Below are positions 13,288 through 64,000 of a DNA stretch of 64,000 nucleotides, piece after piece. The translations under genes and the position numbers were made by a program. The first letter of the stretch is position 1. Each line of letters begins with the position of its first letter. The notes under the pieces were generated by a model. The model was not told the DNA's origin. It saw only the letters and a program-made list of their open reading frames with translations, and ran no database searches. The DNA comes from Nemertoderma westbladi. Lineage: Eukaryota > Animalia > Xenacoelomorpha. The stretch lies in assembly GCA_032718475.1 (NCBI GenBank), contig JAUCBJ010008555.1, positions 1-64,000 of the forward strand. Reading direction: 5' to 3'.

Positions 13288-13307
13288 GAATCAGAGAATT
13301 TCCTGTA

Positions 13308-19814: not shown

Positions 19815-20872
19815 TGTGAATAGTTTTTCCCCGGGGCACGGGTGCTCGCGGGCGGTCTCCTTCGGGAGGCTGTAATTTCTCTTCCTTCATCGTTTTCCTG
19901 TAATTATTGTGATCAGTGTCACAATTAAAGAGCAAGAATGAATGATGATGTGACGGAAACATGTCCATTGTGGTATCTTATGGGTACTACCATATATCCT
20001 CCCTCCTCTTTACTCCCTTTATCCCTCTATACATCGCTATTGAAAATACAACATACTTCGTCCCACCTTCTCTTCCCAATGTGCTCGGAGCTTTGGGAGA
20101 CGATCGACCAATCATTGCCGTATCGTGGTATGGATCATACCGCCTCCTAATAAATCCCCCCACCCCTTACTGTTTATTTGTATGCTCATATTGGTGTCCG
20201 CACCTCTTGTCCATGTCACATTCCACATTCTGTTGATATTTATGATATCAACTTCCACCCTCTCGTTGTTGATTAGAAAGTCAACCACCAATAATTTCCT
20301 TAAGTCCGCAACCGTGATACAAACAAGGACTGAAAGGACACGAGGATAGTTTGTGAACAACTGGTACCATTATGTGTCATAAATCTGGTTGTTCACCTCC
20401 CTCAATGATTGGAGATATAAATCTTATGTAGAACAACTGAGACAAACATATCCTTGAACTGGTGTTTATCTCCTCGCACTAAGGATAAATTCATTTGGAG
20501 ATAGTCTTCGAACGATTGAATCCTCCAACTGAGAACTGAGATCGTATTTCTGAATATTTCTGAATACGACATAGGTCTTCCCCTGCTCTCTACCACTACC
20601 ATCAATGGAAGACATATTAGGCATACAACGGGAATATGGAGAACATTCCATACCCTTTCGTTGATACTCAGCTGATTGCTCCCTGGGCAGAAGGTTGAGG
20701 TTTCTTCCGCACCATGTATGCTAATACGTCTAGCAACATTACAAAGGTGCAATGAACTTCCATCGGACATCTTGCCTTTCAGGAATACGGATGGAATTTC
20801 AAAGTCGGAAATCCCATTAACTATCAACAAGTATACGGAGACCATTATTCTCGATTATACTTTGATGGACCA

Positions 20873-25583: not shown

Positions 25584-26585
<1,002 letters not shown>

Positions 26586-38884: not shown

Positions 38885-41053
38885 GTTTGATTGTACAGTT
38901 GAATGCCTACTGCTATATTACAGTTAAAGCAAGTCTAGTAATTCAGTATCACCGTTGGCCTAGTGCTATTAATTTATTACAGTATATTAGAATATCAGTA
39001 TACACTTATAATATATATAAGTATTGTAAACTAGTTTTGTCACAGAGTACCGGTATATAATTTTAGCACAAATATATGTAACTATATAATAGGCCTATCG
39101 TGAATACCGGTATGCAGCTTACACTTATAGTATATAAGTATAATTCTGGACTGGAATTAATTACAGAATACCAGTATGATTTCAGCTCAAATTTATAGAA
39201 ATAAATATAATAAGCCTATGGTAAATACCGGTATGTCAATTATTTTAAATAATTGAATTTCTGAATATTTTTTAGGGTTACTTGGTTACTTTAACTTACT
39301 TTGTTACCGTTATTTAAGCAGTAGTCCAACTGATTTTGAGACCTAGTTGTTGTATGGCAGGCCTACTATTTATAAATCGTTTGAGTTGATTTATAATATT
39401 TATATACCCGTTTAAAATGGGTTTTGTCAATACTTGAAATAAATGTTATTATTTCTGGGGGTCACTACACAGAAGCTGTGCACTCTCAGTGAAGTGCTAT
39501 TTATTTGACACTAAAACTGATAATTCTAATTTACCTAAGTTACTTAATACTACAAATTACTTACGATACGGGTGAGATTAATTCTCTACTAAACACAACA
39601 AAAATATATTACGTACGAAATTTTAGGGTAATTTTACAGGGAAACTACAAACCAGTCTAACAAAGGGTTAGATTTTTGGTTATTACAACGGACAGGGTAC
39701 TACGGTATTTGAGAATAATAAGTAGTAGTAAATACACTGCGTTGTCCAGATAGGAAAATACCACCGCCTGACGACCTATAGCCGTATCGCTATAGGTACT
39801 ACGTTATGTATCACGGAGTGTCCCTACCTAGAAGTTAATTACCGCGGACTACCAGATCCAGCGTGCCTATTAACCACTTTACAACACAAATATACTGCCT
39901 ACACACTAATTACTTTCGGAAAGCACTGTACACTAAACCCTAAATTAGGTACAAGTACTGGTACAACAAATAATCAGTAGTTAAATATACTTGAACAGTT
40001 AAGAGCACCACGGCATCTGCTGGAGTGACCAGAGCACAAAGTCACCAGTCTTGTCCTACGCCAAGCAGCCCGTGTAGTACCGGGGTTAATTTAACTATAA
40101 CGGTATGTATAACAAGCACAATTACTGTAGGAATAAACTTGGGGACATGAATGTTGCGAATAATCGCATAAACTCTGAATAATAAATATTACGCTACCCG
40201 TACAGAATACTCAAACAAATACAAACCAAACGCTGGCAGACTACCACCAAGCCTAAATAAACTACCGTACGTGTAGATTCTGAAATGGTTAGTTAGTATG
40301 CGTTCTAACACGGTAGTACGACTTATTCTTTAAGAGGGGATTGACCTTACAGCTATGGCTGCCCCAACTTACTAACAGCACTTTATCAGACAAACTCTAC
40401 ACATGCAGCAATCTCTTCAGACCTAATAATAGCTAGACAACAATCCAGCCTACAAATATCTGAGTAATAACTATTACGGTACCTGAACAGACCACACAAA
40501 CAAACACAGGCCAAAACGCTGGCAGAATACTGTCAAGCCTAAATAAACTACAGTATGTGCAGATTCCAAAACGGTTAGTTAGTATGCGTTCTAACACGGT
40601 AGTACGACTTATTCTTTAAGAGGGGATTGACCTTACACTCAAGTTGCCCCAACTTACTAACGGCACTCTATCGGACAAACTCTACACACGCCGTAATCTC
40701 TCCAAACCCAACAACAATCCGACAACAGTCCGGCCTACAATTATCTGTACAATCTGAGCAGACTTACACGTCTTCAGCTCAATATTAACTTACATGTAAA
40801 TAAAACCGACAGAAATAAGTAAAATCTCAATCAAAAACCAGGGCGGCCGTTCCCTGATTAAGTACTAAGACCTACTGGTATACAATAATCAAAATCGAAT
40901 AATACTAATGTACTTATACTGGAAGTACCGGTTAGGACAGTTGGGCCTACGGACCTACAGAAGTACCGGTTCTGGCAGTTGGGCCTACTGACCTACAGAA
41001 GTACCGGTACTTTCAACTTTACTGCTTACTGCAATAAAGTCAATAACTGTTAT

Positions 41054-42533: not shown

Positions 42534-42626
42534 ACGATGATGAATGCACTGCTGGAACAGACAACTGTCACGAAAACGCTGATTGCACCAACACTCCCGG
42601 TTCATTTGAGTGTAACTGCCACAACG
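42534..42626 (+). CDS. cbEGF/ShKT gene exon A (internal; no upstream exons found in the window)
   Basis: TTGCAG|...|GTGAGT, phase 1-1; DDDECTAGTDNCHENADCTNTPGSFECNCHN. Confidence 0.9.
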
Positions 42627-43895: not shown

Positions 43896-44054
43896 GATAT
43901 GAGGGAGACGGTGTTAACTGTGACAACATCAACGAATGCGACGTGCCATCTCTGAATAACTGCCATGAGTTTGCGGATTGTATCGACGATGAACCGGGTT
44001 ACCACTGCGTCTGCCAAGACGGATACACCGGGGATGGAGTCCATAACTGTGAAG
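43896..44054 (+). CDS. cbEGF/ShKT gene exon B
   Basis: TTTAG|...|GTTAGT, 159 nt, phase 1-1; GYEGDGVNCDNINECDVPSLNNCHEFADCIDDEPGYHCVCQDGYTGDGVHNCE completes the EGF begun in exon A. Confidence 0.92.
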
Positions 44055-46305
44055 GTTAGTATATATACACCGGGGATGGAGTCCATAACTGTGAAGGTTA
44101 GTATATATACACCGGGGATGGAGTCCATAACTGTGAAGGTTAGTATATATACACCGGAGATGGAGTCCATAACTGCGAAGGTTAGTATATATACACCGGG
44201 GATGGAGTCCATAACTGCGAAGGTTAGTATATATACACCGGGGATGGAGTCCATAACTGTGAAGGTTAGTATATATACACCGGGGATGGAGTCCATAACT
44301 GCGAAGGTTAGTATATATACACCGGGGATGGAGTCCATAACTGCGAAGGTTAGTATATATACACCGGGGATGGAGTCCATAACTGCGAAGGTTAGTATAT
44401 ATACACCGGGGATGGAGTCCATAACTGTGAAGGTTAGTATATATACACCGGGGATGGAGTCCATAACTGTGAAGGTTAGTATATATACACCGGGGATGGA
44501 GTCCATAACTGTGAAGGTTAGTATATATACACCGGAGATGGAGTCCATAACTGCGAAGGTTAGTTTATATACACCGGGGATGGAGTCCATAACTGCGAAG
44601 GTTAGTATATATACACCGGGGATGGAGTCCATAACTGTGAAGGTTAGTATATATACACCGGGGATGGAGTCCATAACTGTGAAGGTTAGTATATATACAC
44701 CGGGGATGGAGTCCATAACTGTGAAGGTTAGTATATATACACCGGGGATGGAGTCCATACTGTGAAGGTTAGTATATATACACCGGGGATGGAGTCCATA
44801 ACTGTGAAGGTTAGTATATATACACCGGGGATGGAGTCCATAACTGTGAAGGTTAGTATATATACACCGGGGATGGAGTCCATACTGTGAAGGTTAGTAT
44901 ATATACACCGGGGATGGAGTCCATAACTGTGAAGGTTAGTATATATACACCGGGGATGGAGTCCATAACTGTGAAGGTTAGTATATATACACCGGGGATG
45001 GAGTCCATAACTGTGAAGGTTAGTATATATACACCGGGGATGGAGTCCATAACTGTGAAGGTTAGTATATATACACCGGGGATGGAGTCCATAACTGTGA
45101 AGGTTAGTATATATACACCGGGGATGCAGTCCATAACTGTGAAGGTTAGTATATATACACCGGGGATGGAGTCCATAACTGTGAAGGTTAGTATATATAC
45201 ACCGGGGATGGAGTCCATAACTGTGAAGGTTAGTATATATACACCGGGGATGCAGTCCATAACTGTGAAGGTTAGTATATATACACCGGGGATGGAGTCC
45301 ATAACTGTGAAGGTTAGTATATATACACCGGGGATGGAGTCCATAACTGTGAAGGTTAGTATATATACACCGGGGATGGAGTCCATAACTGTGAAGGTTA
45401 GTATATATACACCGGGGATGGAGTCCATAACTGTGAAGGTTAGTATATATACACCGGGGATGGAGTCCATAACTGTGAAGGTTAGTATATATACACCGGG
45501 GATGCAGTCCATAACTGTGAAGGTTAGTATATATACACCGGGGATGCAGTCCATAACTGTGAAGGTTAGTATATATACACCGGGGATGGAGTCCATAACT
45601 GTGAAGGTTAGTATATATACACCGGGGATGGAGTCCATAACTGTGAAGGTTAGTATATATACACCGGGGATGGAGTCCATAACTGTGAAGGTTAGTATAT
45701 ATACACCGGGGATGGAGTCCATAACTGTGAAGGTTAGTATATATACACCGGGGATGGAGTCCATAACTGTGAAGGTTAGTATATATACACCGGGGATGGA
45801 GTCCATAACTGTGAAGGTTAGTATATATACACCGGGGATGGAGTCCATAACTGTGAAGGTTAGTATATATACACCGGGGATGGAGTCCATAACTGTGAAG
45901 GTTAGTATATATACACCGGGGATGGAGTCCATAACTGTGAAGGTTAGTATATATACACCGGGGATGGAGTCCATAACTGTGAAGGTTAGTATATATAGAC
46001 CGGGGATGGAGTCCATAACTGTGAAGGTTAGTATATATAGACCGGGGATGGAGTCCATAACTGTGAAGGTTAGTATATATACACCGGGGATGGAGTCCAT
46101 AACTGTGAAGGTTAGTATATATACACCGGGGATGCAGTCCATAACTGTGAAGGTTAGTATATATACACCGGGGATGGAGTCCATAACTGTGAAGGTTAGT
46201 ATATATACACCGGGGATGGAGTCCATAACTGTGAAGGTTAGTATATATACACCGGGGATGCAGTCCATAACTGTGAAGGTTAGTATATATACACCGGGAT
46301 GGAGT
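44023..46305 (+). repeat. 42-bp minisatellite (~54 copies) made of the exon B 3' end plus its 5' splice donor
   Basis: Unit TACACCGGGGATGGAGTCCATAACTGTGAAG|GTTAGTATATA; the first unit overlaps the exon. Confidence 0.97.
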
Positions 46306-46376
46306 TATTAACTTATTTCCCAGATTGACAGAACAATTCGTATGATAATAATTTCGTCGGCATTGATATTTTTCAG

Positions 46377-46544
46377 AATGTTACCTTGATCCCGATGTGG
46401 CGCCTAGCTGCTCTACCTTAATGGATTTACCCGGCGGCCAGTTCTGTAGCACCCCTATGGCTGCTCGTATATGTCGAACCTCCTGCGAGATCTGTAGTCC
46501 GTGTCCCACCGGCACCATGCCTTCGGAAGATGGTGGTTGTGAGG
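46377..46544 (+). CDS. cbEGF/ShKT gene exon C (ShKT-like domain plus an EGF-type C-loop)
   Basis: TTTTCAG|...|GTGAGT, 168 nt; ECYLDPDVAPSCSTLMDLPGGQFCSTPMAARICRTSCEICSPCPTGTMPSEDGGCE. Confidence 0.85.
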
Positions 46545-46605
46545 GTGAGTAGCGCGTTTGTGTTCTATTTTCTATTATCACAGTTCGCGCCAGTGGGTAG
46601 CAGCT

Positions 46606-46760
46606 CATGACATTCTTAAGACGCATATAAAAGGACACTGGCCTTGAATATGCGGATGATCTAGCAATTAATTGTCATGGGTGATAGGGAGTTGTGGCGG
46701 CGCAATTTTGTCGACAAGCCGACACAGCTTTCTTAAAAATGCGGCGTGCCGATAGTAGTT
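46606..46760 (+). mobile_element. Short RTE-type LINE 3' fragment
   Basis: Matches ~25349-25510 (AAAGGACACTGGCCTT...GGGTGATAGGGAGTTGTGGCGG...TTAAAAATGC). Confidence 0.75.
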
Positions 46761-48512
46761 GTGGGTAATAGGTACCACAGGGATAATTTTGAGTGGTTCA
46801 ATATTTCTGCAATATAATACTAATATAATAATAATATATTAATCAACGCTATTCTAAATACAAGTAAAGTTAATGACACTCAATATTATAGACACATAAA
46901 AAGTAATAACGAAATTTACGTGAAAAATCTAAAATCCGAGAGTCGTGTATATGTATACTACAGTATAGCAAACGGCTATAATTTCTGCTTGTGTGTAGTT
47001 TTGTATATTTTATAACCTTCGGGGGATTAACATATGGCCAAAGATTGGGTTCAAAAAAAATTTCAAATTTGCGTCGCCCTCTAGCGGCCACCAGCGAAAT
47101 TGTTAATTTCACTAAAAACACTACTAGTCTCACAGTTTTGGGCGAAAATTTTCGAAACTTGGTTTTTCTGAATCAGCATCCTCGGCTCCACAAAACGTAT
47201 CGGTTACATTTTTTATTTAGGTCTTAAATATTTTTTAAATATTATTAACTAATATTAATTATTTTTTAATATATATTAACTAATTTCAAGAAATTAATAT
47301 GGCATCGCGCAATTCAAAATTCCAACCGATAATTGTTGATCAAAACCCGAAGAGAAATCAAACAAAAAAAAATTTCGTAAATTGGTTAAGAAATGGCTGA
47401 GTAGTAGTATTTTGAATGTGAAAATTACAATTCCGAGATAAACGCATTTAATGTATGAACAATATATTTCAAATGTTCCCGCTATTTTCAGTACTGGTAT
47501 CTCCTTTTCTTTTCCCATCGGTTATCCCCTATCCATATTTTGTGATTTCTCAATGGATTTCATAAAATTTGGTTCAAAAAAAACCCTACCCACTTTTAAC
47601 AACCTGTTAAAATAATTTTAGTGTGTTTGCCAAAAACACTTCGCGCAGCACGTGAACAAATTTCATTTTGGCGTATTGATTTGATCGCATACTATTTCGT
47701 CATTTAGTAATAAATAGTCATGGAATAATGAGACAACCTTAAGAAACATTCAAAATTATATAACAATTTCCACATAATTTTATAATAAGCCTTTACACAG
47801 AACATTAAGCTTTGCGCAGCACGTGAAACACTCGCGCAGCACGTGAGACATTTGCGCAGCATGTGAAGGTTTCACGTAGCACTTAAATTCTTCACAAAGC
47901 ACGTTACTTAATCGAGCACCTCGGAAAGCTTTTTGATCAGAATGAGAAGCCTTCGCGCGGCACATGAATTGTTCATGCAGCACAGGAAGACTTAGTTTAG
48001 AAGAGTTTAGTTAAGAATTAATTCTCGGAGCCTGCGAAATTTAAAACAAAATAAGTTATGGTTGTTTCCCACAATTATTATTACTAGCTATTGTTATATG
48101 ATGGTTCACGTTTGTTATTACTAGTAGACAACTAGTCCATTAGACCACTGTTCAATATGTAATAAAAAACTCACAAATATCTATTAAATATATATTAATT
48201 AAAATTTGACGGACACGTTGACAGACAGGCAGACATACAAACAGACAGACAGACAGATAGACAAACTGAGAGACAGACATAGTGATTAGATAATTTCAAA
48301 TATGAAAATAGACGACATTAAGAAAAATCCTAACAGCAAACATTTCAGATTGCTTATTATATGCTCTTTTTAATATTTCGACGGACAGACAGGCAGACAT
48401 ACAGACGGAAAACCAGCCATTACTCGAGAAGTAAAAGAGATCTTGCTAAGCCGTTTTCAGATTTGAAATCCGCATTAAATTATACTCTAGATGAAATAAA
48501 AAAACAAAATAA

Positions 48513-48577
48513 CGAAAATGTAGACCTGGGGGGGGGGGGGGGTACACCCCCCCCCCCCCCCCAGGTCTACATTTTCG
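48513..48577. repeat. Near-perfect 65-nt palindrome with poly-G/poly-C core
   Basis: CGAAAATGTAGACCT-G15-TACA-C16-AGGTCTACATTTTCG. Confidence 0.85.
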
Positions 48578-48628
48578 CCCCCCCCCCCCTTAAATATTTA
48601 CATTACAGTGTTATCTAATTTTTTTCAG

Positions 48629-48796
48629 TATGTAACTTAATACCCGACACCAATCCCACTTGCCAGTTCCGTATCGAGAATACCAACGGTAGAGCGTGCA
48701 TGAGCCCGCGCGCTCAGGAACAGTGCAGAACCAGTTGCAATATATGTAGCGACTGTCCCGCCGGTTACCACAGAAACTCCCTAGACGAATGCGAAG
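48629..48796 (+). CDS. cbEGF/ShKT gene exon D (second ShKT-like module)
   Basis: TTTTCAG|...|GTGAGT, 168 nt; VCNLIPDTNPTCQFRIENTNGRACMSPRAQEQCRTSCNICSDCPAGYHRNSLDECE. Confidence 0.87.
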
Positions 48797-49313
48797 GTGA
48801 GTAGAAACAACTAAGAGAAATAAGAAGCTGTGCTACGGTAAAACCAAAAATACCTAAAAAAATATTGTACGATGACCTGTCATTTTGGTCTATTGACATA
48901 TTGAACCGTGGTATGCACGACACAGCACGAGGAACTTGAGCTCTGACAATTCGCCCTCTAGCGACAGACAGATGAACTGTAAAAGTCTGTAAATTAAAAT
49001 GTAAATGTCAATGCTCGTATGTTACTACTACCAAATTTCAGACGAATCTGATGGTTTGTTCTATAATTACTTATACTTTGACGTTTCCGTCAATACGCCC
49101 TTTAACAGCAGACAGATGAACTATATAAGTCTGCTATGTGTAGAATTTCTAAACTAATAATAGCTGCAGGAACTCGAGCAGAGCTCCAGAGATATAAACA
49201 ATAGAAATTATTACTTGTAGGGGCGCCAGATCATTTCATCCTCTGTTTTGATTTTCGTGAAATGTTCTTGTTATTAAGAATTTGTACAACTTTGTTTGAT
49301 TTACGTTTTCTAG

Positions 49314-49439
49314 ACGACGATGAATGCAGTGACGGCTCCCACAACTGCGACGCCGACCACGCCGATTGTATCAACACCCCCGGGGGATACGATTGCGAAT
49401 GCCACGACGGGTATAGTGGGGACGGAACCCACTGCGATG
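49314..49439 (+). CDS. cbEGF/ShKT gene exon E
   Basis: TTCTAG|...|GTTAGT, 126 nt; DDDECSDGSHNCDADHADCINTPGGYDCECHDGYSGDGTHCD. Confidence 0.92.
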
Positions 49440-51238
49440 GTTAGTTTGCGAACAGTTCCGGGTATAGTGGGGATGTAACCCGCTGCGATGGTTAGTTAGC
49501 GAACAGTTCCGGGTATAGTGGGGATGTAACCCGCTGCGATGGTTAGTTAGCGAACAGTTCCGGGTATAGTGGGGACGGAACCCACTGCGACGGTTAGTTA
49601 GCGAACAGTTCCGGGTATAGTGGGGATGGAACCCACTGCGGTGGTTAGTTAGCGAACAGTTCCTGGTATAGTGGGGATGGAACCCATTGCGATGGTTAGT
49701 TAGCGAACAGTTCCGGGTATAGTGGGGATGGAACCCACTGCGATGGTTAGTTAGCGAACAGTTCCTGGTATAGTGGGGATGGAACCCACTGCGACGGTTA
49801 GTTAGCGAACAGTTCCGGGTATAGTGGGGATGGAACCCACTGCGGTGGTTAGTTAGCGAACAGTTCCTGGTATAGTGGGGATGGAACCCACTGCAATGGT
49901 TAGTTAGCGAACAGTTCCGGGTATAGTGGGGACGGAACCCACTGCGATGGTTAGTTAGCGCACACTCCCGGGTATAGTGGGGATGGAACCCACTGCGACG
50001 GTTAGTTAGCGAACAGTTCCGGGTATAGTGGGGATGGAACCCACTGTGATGGTTAGTTAGCGAACAGTCCCGGGTATAGTGGGGACGGAACCCACTGTGA
50101 TGGTTAGTTAGCAAACAGTTCCGGGTATAGTGGGGATGGAACCCACTGTGATGGTTAGTTAGCGAACAGTTCCGGGTATAGTGGGGATGGAATCCACTGC
50201 GACGTTTAGTTAGCGAACAGTTCCGGGTATAGTGGGGATGGAACCCACTGCGATGGTTAGTTAGCGAACAGTTCCGGGTATAGTGGGGATGGAATCCACT
50301 GCGATGGTTAGTTAGCAAACAGTTCCGGTATAGTGGGGATGGAACCCACTGCGATGGTTAGTTAGCGAACAGTCCCGGGTATAGTGGGGATGGAACCCAC
50401 TGCGATGGTTAGTTAGCGAACAGTCCCGGGTATAGTGGGGATGGAACCCACTGCGATGGTTAGTTAGCGAACAGTCCCGGGTATAGTGGGGATGGAACCC
50501 ACTGCGATGGCTAGTTAGCAAACAGTTCCGGGTATAGAGGGGATGGAACCCACTGTGATGGTTAGTTAGCGAACAGTCCCGGGTATAGCGGGGATGGAAC
50601 CCACTGCGATGGTTAGTTAGCGAACAGTCCCGGGTATAGCGGGAACGGAACCCACTGCGATGGTTAGTTAGCGCACACTCCCGGGTATAGTGGGGATGGA
50701 ACCCACTGCGATGGTTAGTTAGCGAACAGTTCCGGGTATAGTGGGGATGGAACCCACTGCGATGGTTAGTTAGCGAACAGTTCTGGGTATAGTGGGGACG
50801 GAACCCCCTGCGATGGTTAGTTAGCGAACAGTTCTGGGTATAGTGGGGACGGAACCCCCTGCGATGGTTAGTTAGCAAACAGTTCCGGGTATAGTGGGAA
50901 TGGAACCCACTGTGATGGTTAGTTAGCGAACAGTCCCGGGTATAGTGGGGACGGAACCCACTGTGATGGTTAGTTAGCAAACAGTTCCGGGTATAGTGGG
51001 ATGGAACCCACTGTGATGGTTAGTTAGCAAACAGTTCCGGGTATAGTGGGGATGGAACCCACTGTGATGGTTAGTTAGCGAACAGTTCCGGGTATAGTGG
51101 GGATGGAATCCACTGCGACGTTTAGTTAGCGAACAGTTCCGGGTATAGTGGGGACGGAACCCACTGCGATGGTTAGTTAGCGAACAGTCCCGGGTATAGC
51201 GGGGATGGAACCCACTGCGGTGGTTGATGGTTAGTTAG
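49408..51238 (+). repeat. 51-bp minisatellite (~36 copies) made of the exon E 3' end plus its 5' splice donor
   Basis: Unit CGGGTATAGTGGGGAYGGAACCCACTGCGATG|GTTAGTTAGCGAACAGTTC. Confidence 0.97.
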
Positions 51239-51304
51239 AAAACAATTCGTATTGCAGTTATAGTGTAGTAGATTGAGTTCGTGTAAACAATATCATTCAT
51301 TGTA

Positions 51305-54300
51305 GGGTCAGAGTAAAACGCGGATCCGGATCAGGATCCGGATTCTATCATTTAACATTGTCCCTATGGAAGTCGACTGAATTTACATTTTTAGGGTGTA
51401 ATCTGCGGATCCGTGCACTGCTAAATTTACCGAATCCGTAACCGAGTGTAAAATGCGGATTGGCCTTTTTTTCAGATCCGGAACGGAGTGTAAAGCGCGG
51501 ATTCATGTTTTAGGCTAAATCCTGAACGGAGTGTAAAACGCGGATTCATTTTTCTACTGAATCCGGGATTGGGTGTAAAATACGGATTCAGGTTTATTAC
51601 AAAGTTTTATTAAATCCGGAAGGGGTGTAAAATGCGGATTCAAGTTAATTACCATGTTTTATTGGATCCGGAATGGAGTGTAAAACGCGGATTCTAGTTA
51701 ATTACCAAGTTTTGTTGGATCCGGAATGGAGTGTAAAACACGGATTTTCGTTAATTACCAAGTTTTATTGGATCCGGAATGGAGTGTAAAACACGGATTT
51801 ACGTTAATTACCAAGTTTTATTGGATCCGGAATGGAGTGTAAAACACGGATTTACGTTAATTACCAAGTTTTATTGGATCCGGAATGGAGTGTAAAACAC
51901 GGATTTACGTTAATTACCAAGTTTTATTGGATCCGGAATGGAGTGTAAAATACGGATTTACGTTAATTACCAAGTTTTATTGGATCCGGAATGGAGTGTA
52001 AAACACGGATTTACGTTAATTACCAAGTTTTATTGGATCCGGAATGGAGTGTAAAACACGGATTTACGTTAATTACTAAGTTTTATTGGATCCGGAATGG
52101 AGTGTAAAACACGGATTTACGTTAATTACCAAGTTTTATTGGATCCGGAATGGAGTGTAAAACACGGATTTACGTTAATTACCAAGTTTTATTGGATCCG
52201 GAATGGAGTGTAAAATACGGATTTACGTTAATTACCAAGTTTTATTGGATCCGGAATGGAGTGTAAAACACGGATTTTCGTTAATTACCAAGTTTTATTG
52301 GATCCGGAATGGAGTGTAAAACACGGATTTACGTTAATTACCAAGTTTTATTGGATCCGGAATGGAGTGTAAAACACGGATTTTCGTTAATTACTAAGTT
52401 TTATTGGATCCGGAATGGAGTGTAAAACACGGATTTACGTTAATTACCAAGTTGTATTGGATCCGGAACGGAGTGTAAAACACGGATTTAGTTAATTACC
52501 AAGTTTTATTGGATCCGGGAAGGGGTGTAAAACGCGGATTCAAGTTAATTAGTAAGTTTTAATGAACAATTTGTAAAACGCATATGCAATAAAGACCCAG
52601 ACCCTCATCTAGTTACAATTATTAATTAGTGCAATGTTTATTGTTCTTTAGTAACTTTTCTTGGCTTGCTGACTTTCCTGGTTTTTTTCTTCTCCGGACT
52701 CGGGGTGCACGATGTTTGCGTAGTGAGTTCAAGCGGCTCAACAATGGCTGTATCATTGGTTGGACTCGGAATAACGAATCCCGTAAATGGAACCTTTACA
52801 AAGTCATCACTGTCATCCATGTTTAATAAGAAATTAAATAAGAAATTATACTGAACAGTTCAGCCTCCATAAATTAGGAAGGCAGCACGCTTGCAAGGCC
52901 TTAAATAGAGTACGCTATGATGCAGTACAAACTACCGCCAGCTAGGCAGAACAGTGATTCTTGTTTGTAAGGGAGGTTGGGATGGATAAGCCAATCAGGG
53001 AACAGGACAGTAATCCTACCATACAATTGTCTACAGAGCCGCTCTACCAGAGAGGTCACGTTCCCACGGTAGTAGTTTTTCAGCTAATCAATATCTAATA
53101 ATGTCTGACGGCCAAGCATCACCATCGCCCTTATTAATAATTCATTGGGAAGCATTGACCCCTATTAAGGTGTCCCCCAGAGCCGGATTAAGCTTATGTG
53201 TGGCCCCTAGACATAGACAAATTATTAAGGTGTCTATTAACTATTAAGGTGTCCCCCATTAATGTTTGTGTCCCTCATTAATGTGTGTCCCTCATTAATA
53301 GTTGTGTCCCTCATTAACAAACTCAGTAATTAACGTAAATCCGCATTTTACACCCCTTCCCGGATCCAGTAACACTTTGTAATTAACCTGAATCAATCCG
53401 CGTTTTACACCCCTTCCCGGATCTAGTAACACTTGGTAAATAAATTGAATCCGCGTTTTACACCCCTTCCCGGATCCATTAAAACTTGGTAATTAACGTA
53501 AATCCGTGTTTTACACTCCATTCCGGATCCAACAAAACTTGGTAATTAACGTAAATCCGTGTTTTACACTCCATTCCGGATCCAACAAAACTTGGTAATT
53601 AACGTAAATCCGTGTTTTACACTCCATTCCGGATCCAACAAAACTTGGTAATTAACGTAAATCCGTGTTTTACACTCCATTCCGGATCCAATAAAACTTG
53701 GTAATTAACGTAAATCCGTGTTTTACACTCCATTCCGGATCCAACAAAACTTGGTAATTAACGAAAATCCGTGTTTTACACTCCATTCCGGATCCAACAA
53801 AACTTGGTAATTAACGTAAATCCGTGTTTTACACTCCATTCCGGATCCAATAAAACTTGGTAATTAACGTAAATCCGTGTTTTACACTCCATTCCGGATC
53901 CAACAAAACTTGGTAATTAACGTAAATCCGTGTTTTACACTCCATTCCGGATCCAATAAAACTTGGTAATTAACGTAAATCCGTGTTTTACACTCCATTC
54001 CGGATCCAACAAAACTTGGTAATTAACGAAAATCCGTGTTTTACACTCCATTCCGGATCCAATAAAACTTGGTAATTAACGTAAATCCGTGTTTTACACT
54101 CCATTCCGGATCCAACAAAACTTGGTAATTAACGAAAATCCGTGTTTTACACTCCATTCCGGATCCAACAAAACTTGGTAATTAACGAAAATCCGTGTTT
54201 TACACTCCATTCCGGATCCAACAAAACTTGGTAATTAACGAAAATCCGTGTTTTACACTCCATTCCGGATCCAATAAAACTTGGTAATTAACGTAAATCC

Positions 54301-54511
54301 GTATTTTACACTCCATTCCGGATTCACAAAATATATGAATCCGCGTTTTACACTGCAATACGGATTGCGTATTTCAGAATCCGCATATTACACTCAGTTA
54401 CGGATTGTATGTAAATCCGGATCCGCCTTTTACACTCGCAAATCCGGGTCCTGATCCGTATCCGGATCCTGAATCCGGATCCGGATCCGGATCCGCGTTT
54501 TACACCTACCC
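51305..54511. mobile_element. Foldback (MULE-like) element with ~1.2-kb inverted arms built from 53-bp tandem repeats
   Basis: GGGT..AGTAAAACGCGGATCCGGATC / GATCCGGATCCGCGTTTTACACCTACCC termini; 9-bp TSD TTCATTGTA (51296-51304, 54512-54520); unit GGATCCGGAATGGAGTGTAAAACACGGATTTACGTTAATTACCAAGTTTTATT, inverted in the right arm. Confidence 0.92.
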
Positions 54512-54810
54512 TTCATTGTATGAATGAACAATATTATATTGTATACATATTATAACAATATTATTCACGGTTTTAATATATTTTATGCAAACCTCAATAA
54601 ACTGTCCTCTTGCGATCGGAAAGTTATTAAGTGTTTGCAGTTTTAGGCCTAGTTTTGTAAGATGCATTCAAATTATTAGCACTATTGTTTTAATTCAGTC
54701 TTCCATTTAGTTAGCACGATGATATCTTATAGAACTATATAAAGTAACTTAAGTTGCATTTAAATATAGAACAGAGATAATCATAATATATAATAATAAA
54801 CTGTTTCTAG

Positions 54811-54933
54811 ACGATGATGAATGCAGTTTGGGCACAGATGATTGCGATGATAACGCCAATTGCATCAACACAGATGGAGGATATGATTGTATATGTAGAA
54901 CGGGTTACTCTGGGAACGGAAGACAATGTGACC
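54811..54933 (+). CDS. cbEGF/ShKT gene exon F
   Basis: TTCTAG|...|GTAAGT, 123 nt; DDDECSLGTDDCDDNANCINTDGGYDCICRTGYSGNGRQCD. Confidence 0.92.
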
Positions 54934-55170
54934 GTAAGTGGCACCGACTATTTACTGTAGAGTACAATGTAACATGTGACACTGAGTATTGAGGAGATAT
55001 ACTTCGCAATATCCACACTAATTTCATTTTGATAATTATTTAATCACATCACTGATGTAATACGCGCTAAACAGATTCACTCAGCAATTACTTTAACGAA
55101 CGGCCGGTTCTAACGTATCTCTCCCAACTATCTACTTGTTCTCATCACCTATAAACTTCTACTTCCACAG

Positions 55171-55362
55171 CGATCAACGAATGTGAAGACGATAATCTCA
55201 ACAACTGTTCCCCATTGGCCGACTGCATCGACACGACCCCGGGATACGAATGCCGCTGTCGCACCGGTTACATGGGTCATTGCGACTTCTGTGTTGATAT
55301 TAATGAGTGCACAACAGGACTGCACAACTGTCACGGTCTAGCCGAATGCGTCAACACTGACG
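55171..55362 (+). CDS. cbEGF/ShKT gene exon G
   Basis: CCACAG|...|GTAAGT, 192 nt; INECEDDNLNNCSPLADCIDTTPGYECRCRTGYMGHCDFCVDINECTTGLHNCHGLAECVNTD. Confidence 0.92.
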
Positions 55363-57574
55363 GTAAGTCGGCACAACTGTCACGGTCTAGCCGAATGCGT
55401 CAACACTGACGGTAAGTCGCCACAACTGTCACGGTCTAGCCGAATGCGTCAACACTGACGGTAAGTCGCCACAACTGTCACGGTCTAGCCGAATGCGTCA
55501 ATACTGACGGTAATGCGGCATAACTGTCACGGTCTAGCCGAATGCGTCAACACTGACGGTAAGTCGGCACAACTGTTACGGTCTATCCGAATGCGTCAAC
55601 ACTGACGGTAATTCGGCATAACTGTCACGGTCTAGCCGAATGTAGTCGGCACAACTGTCACGGTCTAGCCGAATGCGTCAACACTGACGGTAAGTCGGCA
55701 CAACTGTCACGGTCTAGCCGAATGCGTCAACACTGACGGTAAGTCGGCACAACTGTCACGGTCTAGCCGAATGCGTCCACACTGACGGTAAGTCGGCACA
55801 ACTGTCACGGCCTAGCCGAATGCGTCACACTGACGGTAAGTCGGCACAACTGTCACGGCCTAGCCGAATGCGTCAACACTGACGGTAAGTCGGCACAACT
55901 GTCACGGCCTAGCCGAATGCGTCACACTGACGGTAAGTCGGCACAACTGTCACGGTCTAGCCGAATGCGTCAACACTGACGGTAAGTCGCCACAACTGTC
56001 ACGGTCTAGCCGAATGCGTCAACACTGACGGTAAGTCGCCACAACTGTCACGGTCTAGCCGAATGCGTCAATACTGACGGTAATGCGGCATAACTGTCAC
56101 GGTCTAGCCGAATGCGTCAACACTGACGGTAAGTCGGCACAACTGTTACGGTCTATCCGAATGCGTCAACACTGACGGTAATTCGGCATAACTGTCACGG
56201 TCTAGCCGAATGTAGTCGGCACAACTGTCACGGTCTAGCCGAATGCGTCAACACTGACGGTAAGTCGGCACAACTGTCACGGTCTAGCCGAATGCGTCAA
56301 CACTGACGGTAAGTCGGCACAACTGTCACGGTCTAGCCGAATGCGTCCACACTGACGGTAAGTCGGCACAACTGTCACGGCCTAGCCGAATGCGTCACAC
56401 TGACGGTAAGTCGGCACAACTGTCACGGCCTAGCCGAATGCGTCAACACTGACGGTAAGTCGGCACAACTGTCACGGTCTAGCCGAATGCGTCCACACTG
56501 ACGGTAAGTCGGCACAACTGTCACGGCCTAGCCGAATGCGTCACACTGACGGTAAGTCGGCACAACTGTCACGGCCTAGCCGAATGCGTCAACACTGACG
56601 GTAAGTCGGCACAACTGTCACGGCCTAGCCGAATGCGTCACACTGACGGTAAGTCGGCACAACTGTCACGGCCTAGCCGAATGCGTCACACTGACGGTAA
56701 GTCGGCACAACTGCCACGGCCTAGCCGAATGCGTCAACACTGACGGTAAGTCGGCACAACTGTCACGGTCTAGCCGAATGCGTCAACACTGACGGTAAGT
56801 CGGCACAACTGTCTCGGTCTAGCCGAATGCGTCAACACTGACGGTAAGTCGGCACAACTGTCACGGTCTAGCCGAATGCGTCACACTGACGGTAAGTCGG
56901 CACAACTGTCACGGTCTAGCCGAATGCGTCACACTGACGGTAAGTCGGCACAACTGTCACGGTCTAGCCGAATGCGTCAACACTGACGGTAAGTCGGCAC
57001 AACTGTCACGGTCTAGCCGAATGCGTCACACTGACGGTAAGTCGGCACAACTGTCACGGTCTAGCCGAATGCGTCACACTGACGGTAAGTCGGCGCAACT
57101 GTCACGGTCTAGCCGAATGCGTCACACTGACGGTAAGTCGGCACAACTGTCACGGTCTAGCCGAATGCGTCACACTGACGGTAAGTCGGCGCAGCTGTCA
57201 CGGTCTAGCCGAATGCGTCAACACTGACGGTAAGTCGGCACAACTGTCACGGTCTAGCCGAATGCGTCACACTGACGGTAAGTCGGCACAACTGTCACGG
57301 TCTAGCCGAATGCGTCACACTGACGGTAAATCGGCACAACTGTCACGGTCTAGCCGAATGCGTCAACACTGACGGTAAGTCGGCACAACTGTCACGGTCT
57401 AGCCGAATGCGACACACTGACGGTAAATCGGCACAACTGTCACGGTCTAGCCGAATGCGTCAACACTGACGGTAAGTCGGCACAACTGTCACGGTCTAGC
57501 CGAATGCGTCACACTGACGGTAAGTCGGCACAACTGTCACGGTCTAGCCGAATGCGTCACACTGACGGTAAGTC
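55322..57574 (+). repeat. 48/49-bp minisatellite (~46 copies) made of the exon G 3' end plus its 5' splice donor
   Basis: Unit GCACAACTGTCACGGTCTAGCCGAATGCGTCAACACTGACG|GTAAGTCG. Confidence 0.97.
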
Positions 57575-57857
57575 TGCGCGACAGGAATTCAAAACTGTCA
57601 CGGTGCGTCACATCAAACTGGGCCCTGGTGCTATTTTGCATATGGCCCACATTCTGGTGCGATTTGGATCATCTCTAAAATGCAGTATTAGTTGGTTGTC
57701 CGCGTAATATTGTGCGGTTTGTATATATATATAAGGCATGTGACATGTCCTTGTGGGGCATAAAGACAAATATTTTTGGAAATTTAGAGCAAAATATAAA
57801 ATTCCAGAGACATAATATAACTATTTCCGCAAATTCTTAATTATTTTATTGTTTCAG

Positions 57858-58065
57858 GTTCGTACGACTGCGTCTGTCCCCCTGGCTACTGGGGCCCCGG
57901 TACCCATTGCTTCAACCTCGATGAATGCGCCGAGCTGGTCAGCTGCCCCGACCACTCCCACTGCCTAGACAACCCTGGTAGTTACACTTGCGTCTGCAAC
58001 GTGGGATTCCATGCCGAAAATGGAGAATGCGTGGACGATGATGAATGTGAGAGTAATCCATGCAG
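57858..58065 (+). CDS. cbEGF/ShKT gene exon H
   Basis: TTTCAG|...|GTAAAC, phase 1-2; GSYDCVCPPGYWGPGTHCFNLDECAELVSCPDHSHCLDNPGSYTCVCNVGFHAENGECVDDDECESNPC completes the EGF begun in exon G. Confidence 0.92.
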
Positions 58066-58849
58066 GTAAACTTATATAATTTGTATGTAAAGCTTTACTG
58101 TGTAGTTTTATAATATATGAATGTTTGATACTGTAGCAGGTATAATTGGTCGATTCCTGCCAAGTAATTTATAATTTGATTTCTTCATAAAATTCCCTTT
58201 TTAACTTATTTATAACAGGAATAAAGATTATTCCTATAAATTCATGGATACAAAGGAAACAAAGGCAAGTTATTTCCCTAAAAATGGTCCGATTGTTTCT
58301 TTCATATATTATATTAGCTTACTTTCCTCGTGGGCTATGCGATGGGCGAACCTTTACAGTGGATATTACTGATGCACACCTATTATCCATATCATCAGCA
58401 GCAGCAACCGGAATTAATTGCATTTCGGGTATTGAAGGAGAAGCGCGATTATTTTCATGGCGGTATTATGTACCGGTATCAATGTTTGCTGCGAGCAAGG
58501 CATTTGGAAAGCAGAGATTGGAATAATGGCCATAAGGGGGGCTGAAAAGGCAATTTTGTGGAATAGGATCTAATATACGTATTTACATGAAAAACAATTA
58601 ATTTTTACAACTATGATCCCTCGCCCTTGATGCGCCATTAACCTGGCACGCTAAAGCTCGCTCGGTGAGTTTACATCTGGCTGGGGGGGTCTCTAGAGAA
58701 CCTATTTGCTTCATAAATATATTGAGTGTATTGTTTATCTTTTATATTTATTATGTACTCCAACCTAGAAGTCGTTAGTTTGACCCCACCTGGATATTAA
58801 ATATAAAACCTCGGAGTTATTCACCCAAAATATTGTTATTTTTTTTTAG

Positions 58850-59070
58850 TCCCAACGCTGACTGCCTCAACACGGGGGGTTCGTATCACTGCGAGTGTAA
58901 CGATGGTTACCGCGACGTGTATGGAGACGGGAATGTCTGCATTGACATCAACGAATGCACTGAGTTGGCTCACGATTGCGACCGCGACCACGGGATCTGC
59001 ACCAACACCGACGGGAGTTACACATGTACCTGTCCTGAAGGCTACCAAGGGAGTGGACGTTCATGCATAC
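58850..59070 (+). CDS. cbEGF/ShKT gene exon I
   Basis: TTTTAG|...|GTTAGT, phase 2-1; SPNADCLNTGGSYHCECNDGY...DINECTELAHDCDRDHGICTNTDGSYTCTCPEGYQGSGRSCI. Confidence 0.92.
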
Positions 59071-59715
59071 GTTAGTACGAAATATATAATAATTTGTATT
59101 TGTTCAGAAGTGAAACAATTGTGGAAGGATGTCATTGGCTATCGTCAACAGTTCGCTAACTCGTCAGCTACTGTCACCTGACAGAATCTTGCTCAATTAT
59201 TCCACTTCTATCGGTCAGACATACAGTCTTAGTTGCATCTCCGTTGGTTCAACCCCCAGTGTCTTCCCTCCATAATTTTTTCACTTCTGAATAAAATAAG
59301 ACAAGATCATTTACTATAGGCCTACAGCTTTACATTATGATCTCAACTCAAATTATTTATATACAAAATAATATACCAAATTATACTTACAGATATTAGA
59401 CTGACATTATATATTATATTATATATTAGACTGACAAACGAGTATAAACTAATATTTAATAATTTTTTGGAATTGATCGTCTTATTATTCATTGTATTTA
59501 TAATATTTATTATTTATTTGAGTTTAACATTTTTTTTCTTAATAATAGATCACGATTCAGCTGTGCATTCGTTAACGATGTAATGTTCAAATATCTTTAC
59601 AATGAAACTGAACCTTTAAATTGGGTAAAGATTAAAGCGGCACTTTCAACAAAGAATACATGTTTATTATTATTATTTTTATATTCTATTTAGTATGATT
59701 ACATATTATAGATTT

Positions 59716-62700
59716 ATTATTATTCCCATTTACTTTCAGTATCTGACGACTACTCCGATGTTATTATATCCCATTTACTTTCAGTATCTGACGACTGCTC
59801 CGATGTTATTATTTCCCATTTACTTTCAGTTTCTGACGACTGCTCCATTGTTATTATATCCCATTTACTTTCAGTATCTGACGACTGCTCCATTGTTATT
59901 ATTTCCCATTTACTTTCAGTATGTGACGACTGCTCCAATGTTATTATATCCCATTTACTTTCAGTATCTGACGACTGCTCCGATGTTATTATTTCCCATT
60001 TACTTTCAGTATCTGACGACTGCTCCAATGTTATTATTTCCCATTTACTTTCAGTATCTGACGACTGCTCCAATGTTATTATATCCCATTTACATTCAAT
60101 ATCTGACGACTGCTCCAATGTTATTATTTCCCATTTACTTTCAGTATCTGACGACTGCTCCGATGTTATTATTTCCCATTTACTTTCAGTATCTGACGAC
60201 TGCTCCGATGTTATTATTTCCCATTTACTTTCAGTATCTGACGACTGCTCCGATGTTATTATTTCCCATTTACTTTCAGTATCTGACGACTGCTCCGATG
60301 TTATTATTTCCCATTTACTTTCAGTATCTGACGACTGCTCCATTGTTATTATTTCCCATTTACTTTCAGTATCTGACGACTGCTTCGATGTTATTATTTC
60401 CCATTTACTTTCAGTATCTGACGACTGCTCCATTGTTATTATTTCCCATTTACTTTCAGTATCTGACGACTGCTCCGATGTTATTATTTCCCATTTACTT
60501 TCAGTATCTGACGACTGCTCCATTGTTATTATTTCCCATTTACTTTCAGTATCTGACGACTGCTCCGATGTTATTATTTCCCATTTACTTTCATTATCTG
60601 ACGACTGCTCCGATGTTATTATTTCCCATTTACTTTCAGTATCTGACGACTGCTCCGATGTTATTTTTTCCCAAATACTTTCAGTATCTGACGACTGCTC
60701 CGATGTTATTGTTTCCCATTTACTTTCAGTATCTGGCGACTGCTCCGATGTTTTTATTTCCCATTTACTTTCAGTATCTGACACTGCTCCGATGTTATTA
60801 TTTCCCATTTACTTTCAGTATCTGACGACTGCTCCATTGTTATTATTTCCCATTTACTTTCAGTATCTGACGACTGCTCCGATGTTATTATTTCCCATTT
60901 ACTTTCAGTATCTGACGACTGCTCCATTGTTATTATTTCCCATTTACTTTCAGTATCTGACGACTGCTCCGATGTTATTATTTCCCATTTACTTTCATTA
61001 TCTGACGACTGCTCCGATGTTATTATTTCCCATTTACTTTCAGTATCTGACGACTGCTCCATTGTTATTATTTCCCATTTACTTTCAGTATCTGACGACT
61101 GCTCCGATGTTATTATTTCCCATTTACTTTCAGTATCTGACGACTGCTCCGATGTTATTATTTCCCATTTACTTTCAGTATCTGACGACTGCTCCGATGT
61201 TATTTTTTCCCAAATACTTTCAGTATCTGACGACTGCTCCGATGTTATTATTTCCCATTTACTTTCAGTATCTGACGACTGCTCCGATGTTATTATTTCC
61301 CATTTACTTTCAGTATCTGACGACTGCTCCGATGTTATTATTTCCCATTTACTTTCAGTATCTGACGACTGCTCCGATGTTATTATTTCCCATTTACTTT
61401 CAGTATCTGACGACTGCTCCGATGTTATTATTTCCCATTTACTTTCAGTATCTGACGACTGCTCCGATGTTATTTTTTCCCAAATACTTTCAGTATCTGA
61501 CGACTGATCCGATGTTATTGTTTCCCATTTACTTTCAGTATCTGACGACAGCTCCGATGTTATTTTTTCCCAAATACTTTCAGTATCTGACGACTGCTTC
61601 GAGGTTATTATTTCCCATTTACTTTCAGTATCTGACGACTGCTCCGATGTTATTATTTCCCATTTACTTTCAGTATCTGACGACTGCTCCGATGTTATTA
61701 TTTCCCATTTACTTTCAGTATCTGAGGACTGCTCCGATGTTATTATTTCCCATTTACCTTCAATATCTGACGACTGCTCCGATGTTATTATTTCCCATTT
61801 ACTTTCAGTATCTGACGACTGCTCCGATTTTATTATTTCCCATTTACTTTCAGTATCTGACGACTGCTCCGATGTTATTATTTCCCATTTACTTTCAGTA
61901 TCTGACGACTGCTCCGATGTTATTATTTCCCATTTACTTTCAGTATCTGACGACTGCTCCGATGTTATTATTTCCCATTTACTTTCAGTATCTGAGGACT
62001 GCTCCGATGTTATTATTTCCCATTTACCTTCAATATCTGACGACTGCTCCGATGTTATTATTTCCCATTTACTTTCAGTATCTGACGACTGCTCCGATTT
62101 TATTATTTCCCATTTACTTTCAGTATCTGACGACTGCTCCGATGTTATTATTTCCCATTTACTTTCAGTATCTGAGGACTGCTCCGATGTTATTATTTCC
62201 CATTTACCTTCAATATCTGACGACTGCTCCGATGTTATTATTTCCCATTTACTTTCAGTATCTGACGACTGCTCCGATTTTATTATTTCCCATTTACTTT
62301 CAGTATCTGACGACTGCTCCGATGTTATTATATCCCATTTACATTCAATATCTGACGACTGCTCCAATGTTATTATTTCCCATTTACTTTCAGTATCTGA
62401 CGACTGCTCCGATGTTATTATTTCCCATTTACTTTCAGTATCTGACGACTGCTCCGATGTTATTATTTCCCATTTACTTTCAGTATCTGACGACTGCTCC
62501 GATGTTATTATTTCCCATTTACTTTCAGTATCTGACGACTGCTCCGATGTTATTATTTCCCATTTACTTTCAGTATCTGACGACTGCTCCATTGTTATTA
62601 TTTCCCATTTACTTTCAGTATCTGACGACTGCTTCGATGTTATTATTTCCCATTTACTTTCAGTATCTGACGACTGCTCCATTGTTATTATTTCCCATTT

Positions 62701-64000
62701 ACTTTCAGTATCTGACGACTGCTCCGATGTTATTATTTCCCATTTACTTTCAGTATCTGACGACTGCTCCATTGTTATTATTTCCCATTTACTTTCAGTA
62801 TCTGACGACTGCTCCGATGTTATTATTTCCCATTTACTTTCATTATCTGACGACTGCTCCGATGTTATTATTTCCCATTTACTTTCAGTATCTGACGACT
62901 GCTCCGATGTTATTTTTTCCCAAATACTTTCAGTATCTGACGACTGCTCCGATGTTATTGTTTCCCATTTACTTTCAGTATCTGGCGACTGCTCCGATGT
63001 TTTTATTTCCCATTTACTTTCAGTATCTGACACTGCTCCGATGTTATTATTTCCCATTTACTTTCAGTATCTGACGACTGCTCCATTGTTATTATTTCCC
63101 ATTTACTTTCAGTATCTGACGACTGCTCCGATGTTATTATTTCCCATTTACTTTCAGTATCTGACGACTGCTCCATTGTTATTATTTCCCATTTACTTTC
63201 AGTATCTGACGACTGCTCCGATGTTATTATTTCCCATTTACTTTCATTATCTGACGACTGCTCCGATGTTATTATTTCCCATTTACTTTCAGTATCTGAC
63301 GACTGCTCCATTGTTATTATTTCCCATTTACTTTCAGTATCTGACGACTGCTCCGATGTTATTATTTCCCATTTACTTTCAGTATCTGACGACTGCTCCG
63401 ATGTTATTATTTCCCATTTACTTTCAGTATCTGACGACTGCTCCGATGTTATTTTTTCCCAAATACTTTCAGTATCTGACGACTGCTCCGATGTTATTAT
63501 TTCCCATTTACTTTCAGTATCTGACGACTGCTCCGATGTTATTATTTCCCATTTACTTTCAGTATCTGACGACTGCTCCGATGTTATTATTTCCCATTTA
63601 CTTTCAGTATCTGACGACTGCTCCGATGTTATTATTTCCCATTTACTTTCAGTATCTGACGACTGCTCCGATGTTATTATTTCCCATTTACTTTCAGTAT
63701 CTGACGACTGCTCCGATGTTATTTTTTCCCAAATACTTTCAGTATCTGACGACTGATCCGATGTTATTGTTTCCCATTTACTTTCAGTATCTGACGACAG
63801 CTCCGATGTTATTTTTTCCCAAATACTTTCAGTATCTGACGACTGCTTCGAGGTTATTATTTCCCATTTACTTTCAGTATCTGACGACTGCTCCGATGTT
63901 ATTATTTCCCATTTACTTTCAGTATCTGACGACTGCTCCGATGTTATTATTTCCCATTTACTTTCAGTATCTGAGGACTGCTCCGATGTTATTATTTCCC
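59716..64000 (+). repeat. 45-bp minisatellite (~95 copies in window, runs off the end), probably a 3' splice acceptor plus the start of the next exon
   Basis: Unit TTATTATTTCCCATTTACTTTCAG|TATCTGACGACTGCTCCGATG: polypyrimidine tract, CAG, then phase-1 (L)SDDCSD. Confidence 0.9.

What the first reader, a model, noticed from the sequence alone, without database searches (positions are those of the whole stretch)
44023..64000. Four independent splice-site minisatellites in one gene: exon-intron junctions amplified into kb arrays
Seen: all four simple tandem arrays in this 20-kb stretch are unrelated in sequence (42, 51, 49 and 45 bp), yet each unit straddles a splice junction. Three are the last 31-41 nt of an EGF exon plus its GT donor (exons B, E, G). 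The fourth looks like a polypyrimidine-CAG acceptor plus an exon start. Junctions are a tiny fraction of the gene, so four of four is unlikely by chance. The pre-mRNA would carry about 135 extra donors and about 95 or more extra acceptors. Inference: either a junction-targeted mutational process (for example spliceosome/R-loop or RNA-templated slippage) or a tunable splicing device (U1/U2AF decoys, NMD rheostat). I know of no named system matching this, but could not search the literature.
Basis: partly seen in the sequence, partly recalled or inferred. Interest (0 to 1): 0.88.

Follow-up and report, generated by a model that had tools for sequence, protein, structure and literature searches.

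The report
Four "mirage" splice-junction repeats, one gene
In one animal gene, short stretches spanning four exon borders have each been copied head-to-tail dozens of times into the neighbouring introns; where the assembled RNA shows which copy is used, it is the one next to the exon, so this is a large but likely harmless example of a repeat type ("mirages") already described in lancelets and humans.

Summary
The four arrays are real and each unit spans a splice junction. Three copy an EGF exon end plus its GT donor (42, 51, 49/48 bp; 54, 36, 47 units). The fourth copies an acceptor plus exon start (45 bp, at least 95 units). Read-derived contigs of two DNA samples hold the arrays at multi-copy depth. 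Spliced contigs join exon G to H through one unit, and exon I to the last acceptor copy, although one extra 45-bp unit would stay in frame without a stop. Splice dinucleotides vary as often as other positions. This is a named, published class: amphioxus "mirages" (Adh3, globins, PGBD5) and human junction minisatellites (F7, CBS, 6-16), where the exon-proximal site normally wins. The scan has also noted it before in other genomes. Corrections: two further 53-bp arrays are not at junctions (4 of 6), and arrays 1 and 2 are homologous EGF ends, not unrelated. Unit ends do not fall on splice sites, so reverse splicing or mRNA templating is unlikely. A tunable splicing device is unsupported. Why junctions seed such arrays remains open; no genome was held to test enrichment.

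The parts
42534..42626 (+). Exon A (EGF_CA start); upstream of the finding, no array
   Evidence: AG/GT ends and open frame; EGF_CA E 2.6e-08
43896..44054 (+). Exon B (EGF); its last 32 nt are the first unit of array 1
   Evidence: X4 contig joins a unit end to exon C
44023..46305 (+). Array 1: 42-bp unit = 32 nt exon B end + 10 nt intron start with GT donor; 54 full units plus a partial one
   Evidence: multi-copy depth in X1 and X2
46377..46544 (+). Exon C, cysteine-rich non-EGF module (ShK-like by eye; label recalled, no Pfam hit)
   Evidence: C to D joint GT..AG in X4
48629..48796 (+). Exon D, cysteine-rich non-EGF module
49314..49439 (+). Exon E (EGF_CA); last 32 nt are the first unit of array 2; donor inferred, no RNA cover
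49408..51250 (+). Array 2: 51-bp unit = 32 nt exon E end + 19 nt intron start; 36 units, 27 distinct
51305..54512 (.). Inverted-repeat (foldback or MITE-like) element with two opposed 53-bp arrays and a 7-8 bp direct repeat at its ends; not at a junction
54811..54933 (+). Exon F (EGF_CA), paralogous to E, no array
55171..55362 (+). Exon G; last 41 nt are the first unit of array 3
   Evidence: X4 contig: unique exon G sequence, one unit, then exon H
55322..57574 (+). Array 3: 49/48-bp unit = 41 nt exon G end + 8 nt intron start; 47 segments; exact 554-bp block repeat inside
   Evidence: depth
57858..58065 (+). Exon H (EGF), no array
   Evidence: H to I joint GT..AG in X4 and X5
58850..59070 (+). 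Exon I (EGF_CA), no array
59716..64000 (+). Array 4: 45-bp unit = 24 nt intron end with AG + 21 nt exon J start; at least 95 units; the acceptor used is the last copy, beyond the window; exact 1679-bp block repeat inside

Best explanation
These are four 'mirage' minisatellites: short segments spanning an exon border stand in tens to more than ninety tandem copies in the introns of an EGF-repeat gene, likely born as small DNA-level duplications and likely tolerated because the spliceosome takes the copy nearest the exon. Shown: the arrays, their junction content, use of the exon-side copy at arrays 3 and 4, and internal block repeats. Inferred steps: (1) a 42-51 bp duplication starts in or at the edge of an exon, probably by slippage or template switching at short microhomology; (2) duplications wholly inside an exon are purged, while those crossing a junction leave the reading frame intact and survive; (3) slippage and unequal exchange amplify them; (4) exon definition, or 5'-to-3' donor scanning, keeps the outer copies mostly silent, and the rare use of an extra donor would meet a stop and likely be removed by nonsense-mediated decay. 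Membership and near-neutrality: about 0.8. The exon-seeded microhomology origin: about 0.45.
For: Junction content and open frame. One X4 contig of 785 nt runs exon G unique sequence, one unit, H, I, one array-4 unit, exon J; one X5 contig of 4823 nt at depth 693 runs H, I, one unit, J; only 1 record each was laid, so no extra-unit contig appeared. One extra array-4 unit is in frame and stop-free, so decay cannot hide it. Distinct variants at GT/AG: 4 over 8 columns against 68 over 179 elsewhere. Multi-copy depth in two DNA samples. Exact block repeats of 554 and 1679 bp point to unequal exchange. Short end homology at arrays 3 (4 nt) and 4 (5 nt exact). Literature: first donor used in F7, by experiment (PMC1557585); mirages do not disturb splicing (PMC3087553, PMC3902484); sites closest across the exon are preferred beside long introns (PMC9225289, abstract).
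Against: Contigs drop rare variants, so minor isoforms are not excluded; in human 6-16 and CBS the nearest extra donors are used (PMC1557585, introduction). Which copy is used at array 1 is not shown (the X4 contig ends 15 nt into the unit), and array 2 has no RNA cover. The GT/AG test rests on 8 columns. Microhomology was read by eye, is unclear at array 2, and at array 3 may be a worn older unit (remnant beyond the end, p 0.001). No genome was held, so neither enrichment nor the exon-seeding step was tested.
Confidence: 0.75

Rival explanations
1. A mutational process tied to transcription or splicing (R-loops, polymerase pausing, nucleosome edges) actively targets exon-intron junctions and starts the duplications; the arrays are still neutral.
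For: 4 of 19 junctions of this gene part carry kb arrays, and every locally derived long array is at a junction. Arrays 1 and 2 both start 32 nt before the donor. The origin is called unclear in PMC3087553.
Against: No unit end coincides with a splice site and all units include intron sequence, which argues against reverse splicing and spliced-mRNA templates. Exon seeding plus purifying selection gives the same pattern without splice-site targeting. Arrays 1 and 2 share a paralogous motif, which may explain the shared start.
Confidence: 0.3
2. The arrays are a tunable splicing device: decoys for U1 or U2AF, or a length-dependent decay rheostat.
For: Most copies keep GT or AG. Use of an extra donor would give an immediate stop at arrays 1 and 2 and a frameshift at array 3, so decay could hide such products. 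Some human junction VNTRs do use nearby extra sites (PMC1557585).
Against: No extra-unit contig even at array 4, where decay would not hide it. No excess conservation of GT/AG. Copies are young and nearly identical, so intact sites are expected. Depth suggests very different lengths between samples (rough).
Confidence: 0.07
3. The arrays, or their lengths, are assembly artefacts.
For: Exact 554-bp and 1679-bp block repeats inside arrays 3 and 4. X1 depth implies only about 8-9 units at arrays 1 and 3 against 54 and 47 assembled.
Against: Unit-to-unit words occur at high depth in two samples of two studies. X2 depth implies about 38-42 units for array 3 and about 100 copies of array-4 words. 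Units carry many distinct variants.
Confidence: 0.03

Closest known systems
Amphioxus 'mirage' minisatellites (Adh3; globins BflGb6 and BflGb9), Ebner et al. 2010, PMC3087553 (passages of abstract, intron section and reference list seen). Canestro et al. 2002 seen only as its reference 68; not held.
   Same: [quoted passage not shown]
   Different: Copy numbers here are far larger than the 3-6 units given for BflGb6 (36 to more than 95). Another animal lineage (nearest DIMT1 relatives only 71-72% identical). Adh3 copy numbers were not seen.
Lancelet PGBD5 junction repeats, PMC3902484 (passages seen)
   Same: More than one junction repeat in one gene (60 bp at exon 3, 108 bp at exon 4); copy number differs between sequences; authors conclude they are real and do not disturb splicing.
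   Different: 2-7 imperfect copies there; four near-perfect kb arrays here.
Human F7 intron 7 37-bp VNTR, with 6-16, CBS, lamin B2 and PDGF junction minisatellites, Borensztajn et al. 2006, PMC1557585 (abstract and passages of introduction, results, discussion seen)
   Same: First unit spans the exon-intron boundary; identical pseudo-donors follow; the most upstream donor is used; pseudo-sites work if the real one is mutated.
   Different: Donor side only, one array per gene, 5-25 copies; only 4 exon bases in the F7 unit against 32-41 here.
Internal tandem repeats at exon-intron boundaries of human duplicated genes, De Grassi and Ciccarelli 2009, PMC2812944 (passages seen)
   Same: Variable tandem repeats at exon-intron boundaries.
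   Different: There they often create new introns or alternative transcripts; none was seen here.

Membership tests
Mirage / exon-intron junction minisatellite | Head-to-tail repeat whose unit spans an exon-intron boundary | tested here: met
   All four units; junctions of arrays 1, 3 and 4 backed by spliced contigs, array 2 by frame and Pfam
Mirage / exon-intron junction minisatellite | The exon-side terminal unit is part of the real exon; other copies lie in the intron | tested here: met
   Arrays 3 and 4 by RNA contigs; arrays 1 and 2 by sequence
Mirage / exon-intron junction minisatellite | Many but not all copies keep the AG or GT signal | tested here: met
   54 of 55, 33 of 36, 45 of 47, 86 of 95
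Mirage / exon-intron junction minisatellite | Regular splicing predominates | tested here: met
   Arrays 3 and 4 only, from contigs that drop rare variants; arrays 1 and 2 open
Mirage / exon-intron junction minisatellite | Length varies between alleles or individuals | tested here: inconclusive
   Depth-based estimates differ between X1, X2 and the window, but contig depth is not a copy number
Mirage / exon-intron junction minisatellite | Somatic instability (reported for Adh3) | not testable with these tools
   Needs single-molecule reads from one individual
Regulatory splice-decoy array | Outer copies used or conserved under selection | tested here: not met
   No extra-unit contig; GT/AG not more conserved than other columns; both tests are weak
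Reverse-splicing or mRNA-templated insertion | Breakpoints exactly at splice sites, or exon-exon junction copies | tested here: not met
   Unit ends lie 21-41 nt inside exons and 8-24 nt inside introns

The most novel reading that the evidence does not exclude
This animal has a strong, genome-wide mutational bias that starts short duplications at exon edges, so junction arrays are its main class of locally born minisatellite. The locus, with four large arrays at 19 junctions and an in-frame acceptor array of perhaps 100-190 copies that is skipped exactly, would then be a test bed for the unsolved origin of mirages and for how the last of many identical acceptors is chosen.
Probability: 0.35. 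Interest if true: 0.55.

Novelty: new member of a known kind. Interest (0 to 1): 0.27.

Why it matters
As a class it is known, so it changes no model by itself. It is an unusually dense and large case: four arrays in ten exons, on both donor and acceptor sides. Array 4 is a natural experiment, since extra units keep the frame and the acceptor in use now has repeat copies, not the original intron, upstream of it. If genome-wide enrichment were shown, the open question of why exon borders seed minisatellites would become testable. In practice such arrays can mislead gene prediction, because array 4 has frames open for more than 800 codons.

Tried and rejected
No whole genome is held, so the genome-wide overlap test was not run, and no earlier notes exist for this genome. 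No RNA holder was listed by record; X4 and X5, labelled 'DNA?', proved spliced when laid. X5 gave no cover on exons B-E or G, X4 none on exon E, and X2 was thin over exons C-E; nothing is inferred from these gaps. A scan of all 18 junctions of exons A-I for worn copies within 250 nt found only the three known donors; 15 of 18 were negative. The 53-bp unit matched no exon and no other unit. Shared ancestry of arrays 1 and 2 as one old array was considered and judged unlikely: periods and intron parts differ, and exon F resembles E as much as B does (23 of 35 columns each) yet has no array. The count of 21 intact donors for array 2 came from too strict a pattern; one search gives 33. One search gives 47 of 47 for array 3 by forcing two 33-bp units; one search's 45 is used. 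The gene's own full protein was not found (68 hits, at most 56% identical, generic EGF-repeat proteins). Rfam found nothing in the high-copy element at 46500-46850. Paper searches with no useful hit; none found a genome-wide enrichment test or a tested origin mechanism, but the library lacks most subscription papers. Not held: Turri 1995, Canestro 2002, a PNAS paper on introns from tandem arrays (recalled only). Supplements were not read; the alignment files of PMC3087553 could refine the comparison.

Full report
What is there. TRF lists six arrays above 1 kb between 44 and 64 kb: periods 42 (44023-46305), 51 (49408-51225), 53 (51561-52561 and 53319-54331), 49/48 (55322-57574) and 45 (59717 to the end). 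Nine exons, A to I, have AG/GT ends and join into 492 codons without a stop. Seven of the nine match Pfam EGF families; C and D are cysteine-rich and match none. Relatives are generic EGF-repeat proteins, at most 56% identical. The organism is an animal without a close relative in the protein collection: an intronless DIMT1 frame in the window has best hits at 71-72% across several phyla.

Junction content. Arrays 1, 2 and 3 start 32, 32 and 41 nt before the donors of exons B, E and G and include 10, 19 and 8 nt of intron. Array 4 holds 24 nt of intron end, the AG, and 21 nt of the next exon. The splice dinucleotide is intact in 54 of 55, 33 of 36, 45 of 47 and 86 of 95 segments. The other 15 of 18 junctions of exons A-I show no copies within 250 nt. 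The two 53-bp arrays face each other inside an element with terminal inverted repeats and a 7-8 bp direct repeat at its ends; they are not at a junction. So 4 of 6 long arrays, and all four that arose from local sequence, span a junction.

Chance and independence. With arrays collapsed, 18 junctions lie in 11,015 bases, giving about 0.067 per array; 4 of 4 gives 2e-5, at least 4 of 6 gives 2.7e-4, and at least 3 of 5 gives 2.7e-3. The window was picked from a very large scan, so these overstate the surprise. Units 1 and 2 are not unrelated: 29 of 37 aligned columns match (p 0.0015), as both are the end of a paralogous EGF exon with the same six-base donor. The likeness is no more than that between exons E and F (23 of 35 columns in each pair), and periods and intron parts differ, so separate origins at a shared motif are still likely.

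Not an artefact. No genome was held. Five runs of three studies hold the stretch or part of it. In two DNA runs of different samples the unique sequence between arrays 3 and 4 is one 2.2-kb contig at depth 24-25, while array words stand far higher. In X2, array-4 words are at about 102 copies and array-3 words at 10-14, implying roughly 186 and 38-42 units if the variant mix equals the window's; X1 implies only about 8-9 units at arrays 1 and 3. Contig depth is no true copy number, so this shows existence and hints at variable length. One of these samples may be the window's source. Exact block repeats of 554 bp and 1679 bp inside arrays 3 and 4 fit recent unequal exchange, though assembly could have made them.

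How the RNA is spliced. X4 and X5 are listed as 'DNA?' but show GT..AG joints and cover exons rather than introns between arrays 3 and 4. One X4 contig carries unique exon G sequence, a single array-3 unit, exons H and I, a single array-4 unit and unique exon J sequence. One X5 contig at depth 693 shows H, I, one unit, J. Both DNA runs show the same unique sequence behind an array-4 unit, so the acceptor used is the last copy, beyond the window. Only 1 record of each RNA-like run was laid there, so no extra-unit form appeared. This matters most at array 4, where one more consensus unit adds 15 residues without a stop and decay could not hide it; within the window 2 of 95 units shift the frame and 2 hold a stop. 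At array 1 an X4 contig joins a unit end to exon C but stops after 15 nt, so the copy is unknown; array 2 has no RNA cover. Use of an extra donor would meet a stop at once in arrays 1 and 2 and a frameshift in array 3. Contigs drop rare variants, so low-level use is not excluded.

Selection on the copies. Distinct variants fall on GT/AG at 4 per 8 columns and elsewhere at 68 per 179. There is no sign that the extra sites are kept or removed, but the test is small.

Mechanism. No unit end lies at a splice site, and every unit has intron sequence, so reverse splicing and spliced-mRNA templates are unlikely (inference). Short homology marks the ends of array 4 (five exact bases shared by the exon side and the intron side) and array 3 (four bases). 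Array 1 ends in a 17-18 nt partial unit and array 2 shows nothing clear; array 3 also has a worn remnant past its end. I infer a small DNA-level duplication by slippage or template switching, then growth by slippage and unequal exchange. For the junction bias the simplest reading is exon seeding plus a filter: exons are 53% G+C against 34% in introns and paralogous to each other, duplications inside an exon are purged, and those crossing a junction are harmless. This step is untested. Tolerance follows from published rules: the most upstream of identical donors is chosen in F7 minigenes (PMC1557585, passages), and beside long introns the sites closest across the exon are preferred (PMC9225289, abstract only).

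Comparison with what is known. [quoted passage not shown] Lancelet PGBD5 has two in one gene (PMC3902484). Human F7, 6-16, CBS, lamin B2 and PDGF carry donor-side versions (PMC1557585). The structural criteria that I could test are met; length instability is inconclusive. The lead to the name came from earlier notes of this scan, which list 10 similar findings in at least 8 genomes and more; these are unchecked notes, and I checked only the papers.

Verdict. A real, dense and large example of a known class. What stays open is why exon borders seed these arrays; my searches found no genome-wide test, within a library that lacks most subscription papers. Interest 0.27.

Noticed in passing
window 51305-54512: Foldback or MITE-like element in intron E-F: terminal inverted repeats, a 7-8 bp direct repeat at both ends, two opposed 1-kb arrays of a 53-bp unit around a unique core.
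   Followed up: partly
window 46550-46760: Short intronic element at extreme depth (up to about 1e6 summed in X1) that is also present in the RNA-like runs; no Rfam match. Probably a very abundant SINE-like repeat.
   Followed up: partly
window 47000-48585: A high-copy 1.6-kb element in intron C-D; one X1 contig skips it (joint 46999 to 48585, depth 17.6), which suggests a presence/absence polymorphism.
   Followed up: no
window 25662-26582: Intronless full-length DIMT1 (rRNA dimethyladenosine transferase) frame, 71-72% identical to the best animal hits.
   Followed up: partly
window 9544-17728 (+) and 34711-38917 (-): Two opposed BEL/Pao-type retrotransposon copies: DUF1759, Pao peptidase, integrase zinc finger, DUF5641.
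   Followed up: partly
window 20756-22408: 551-codon open frame with no Pfam match.
   Followed up: no
window 42626, 55362, 58065: Three introns split EGF modules in the middle rather than between modules, and several module borders lack introns; possible intron gain and loss.
   Followed up: no
window 59785-59805 (each array-4 unit): The exon-derived part of each unit holds a branch-point-like CTGAC about 38 nt before the next unit's AG (motif recalled), so the acceptor in use may take its branch point from the copy before it.
   Followed up: no
window 46316-49400: X2 depth over exons C-E is 0.2-6 against 24 over exons H-I, and X5 covers H-J but not B-E. It could be a filter effect or a module-number variant.
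   Followed up: no
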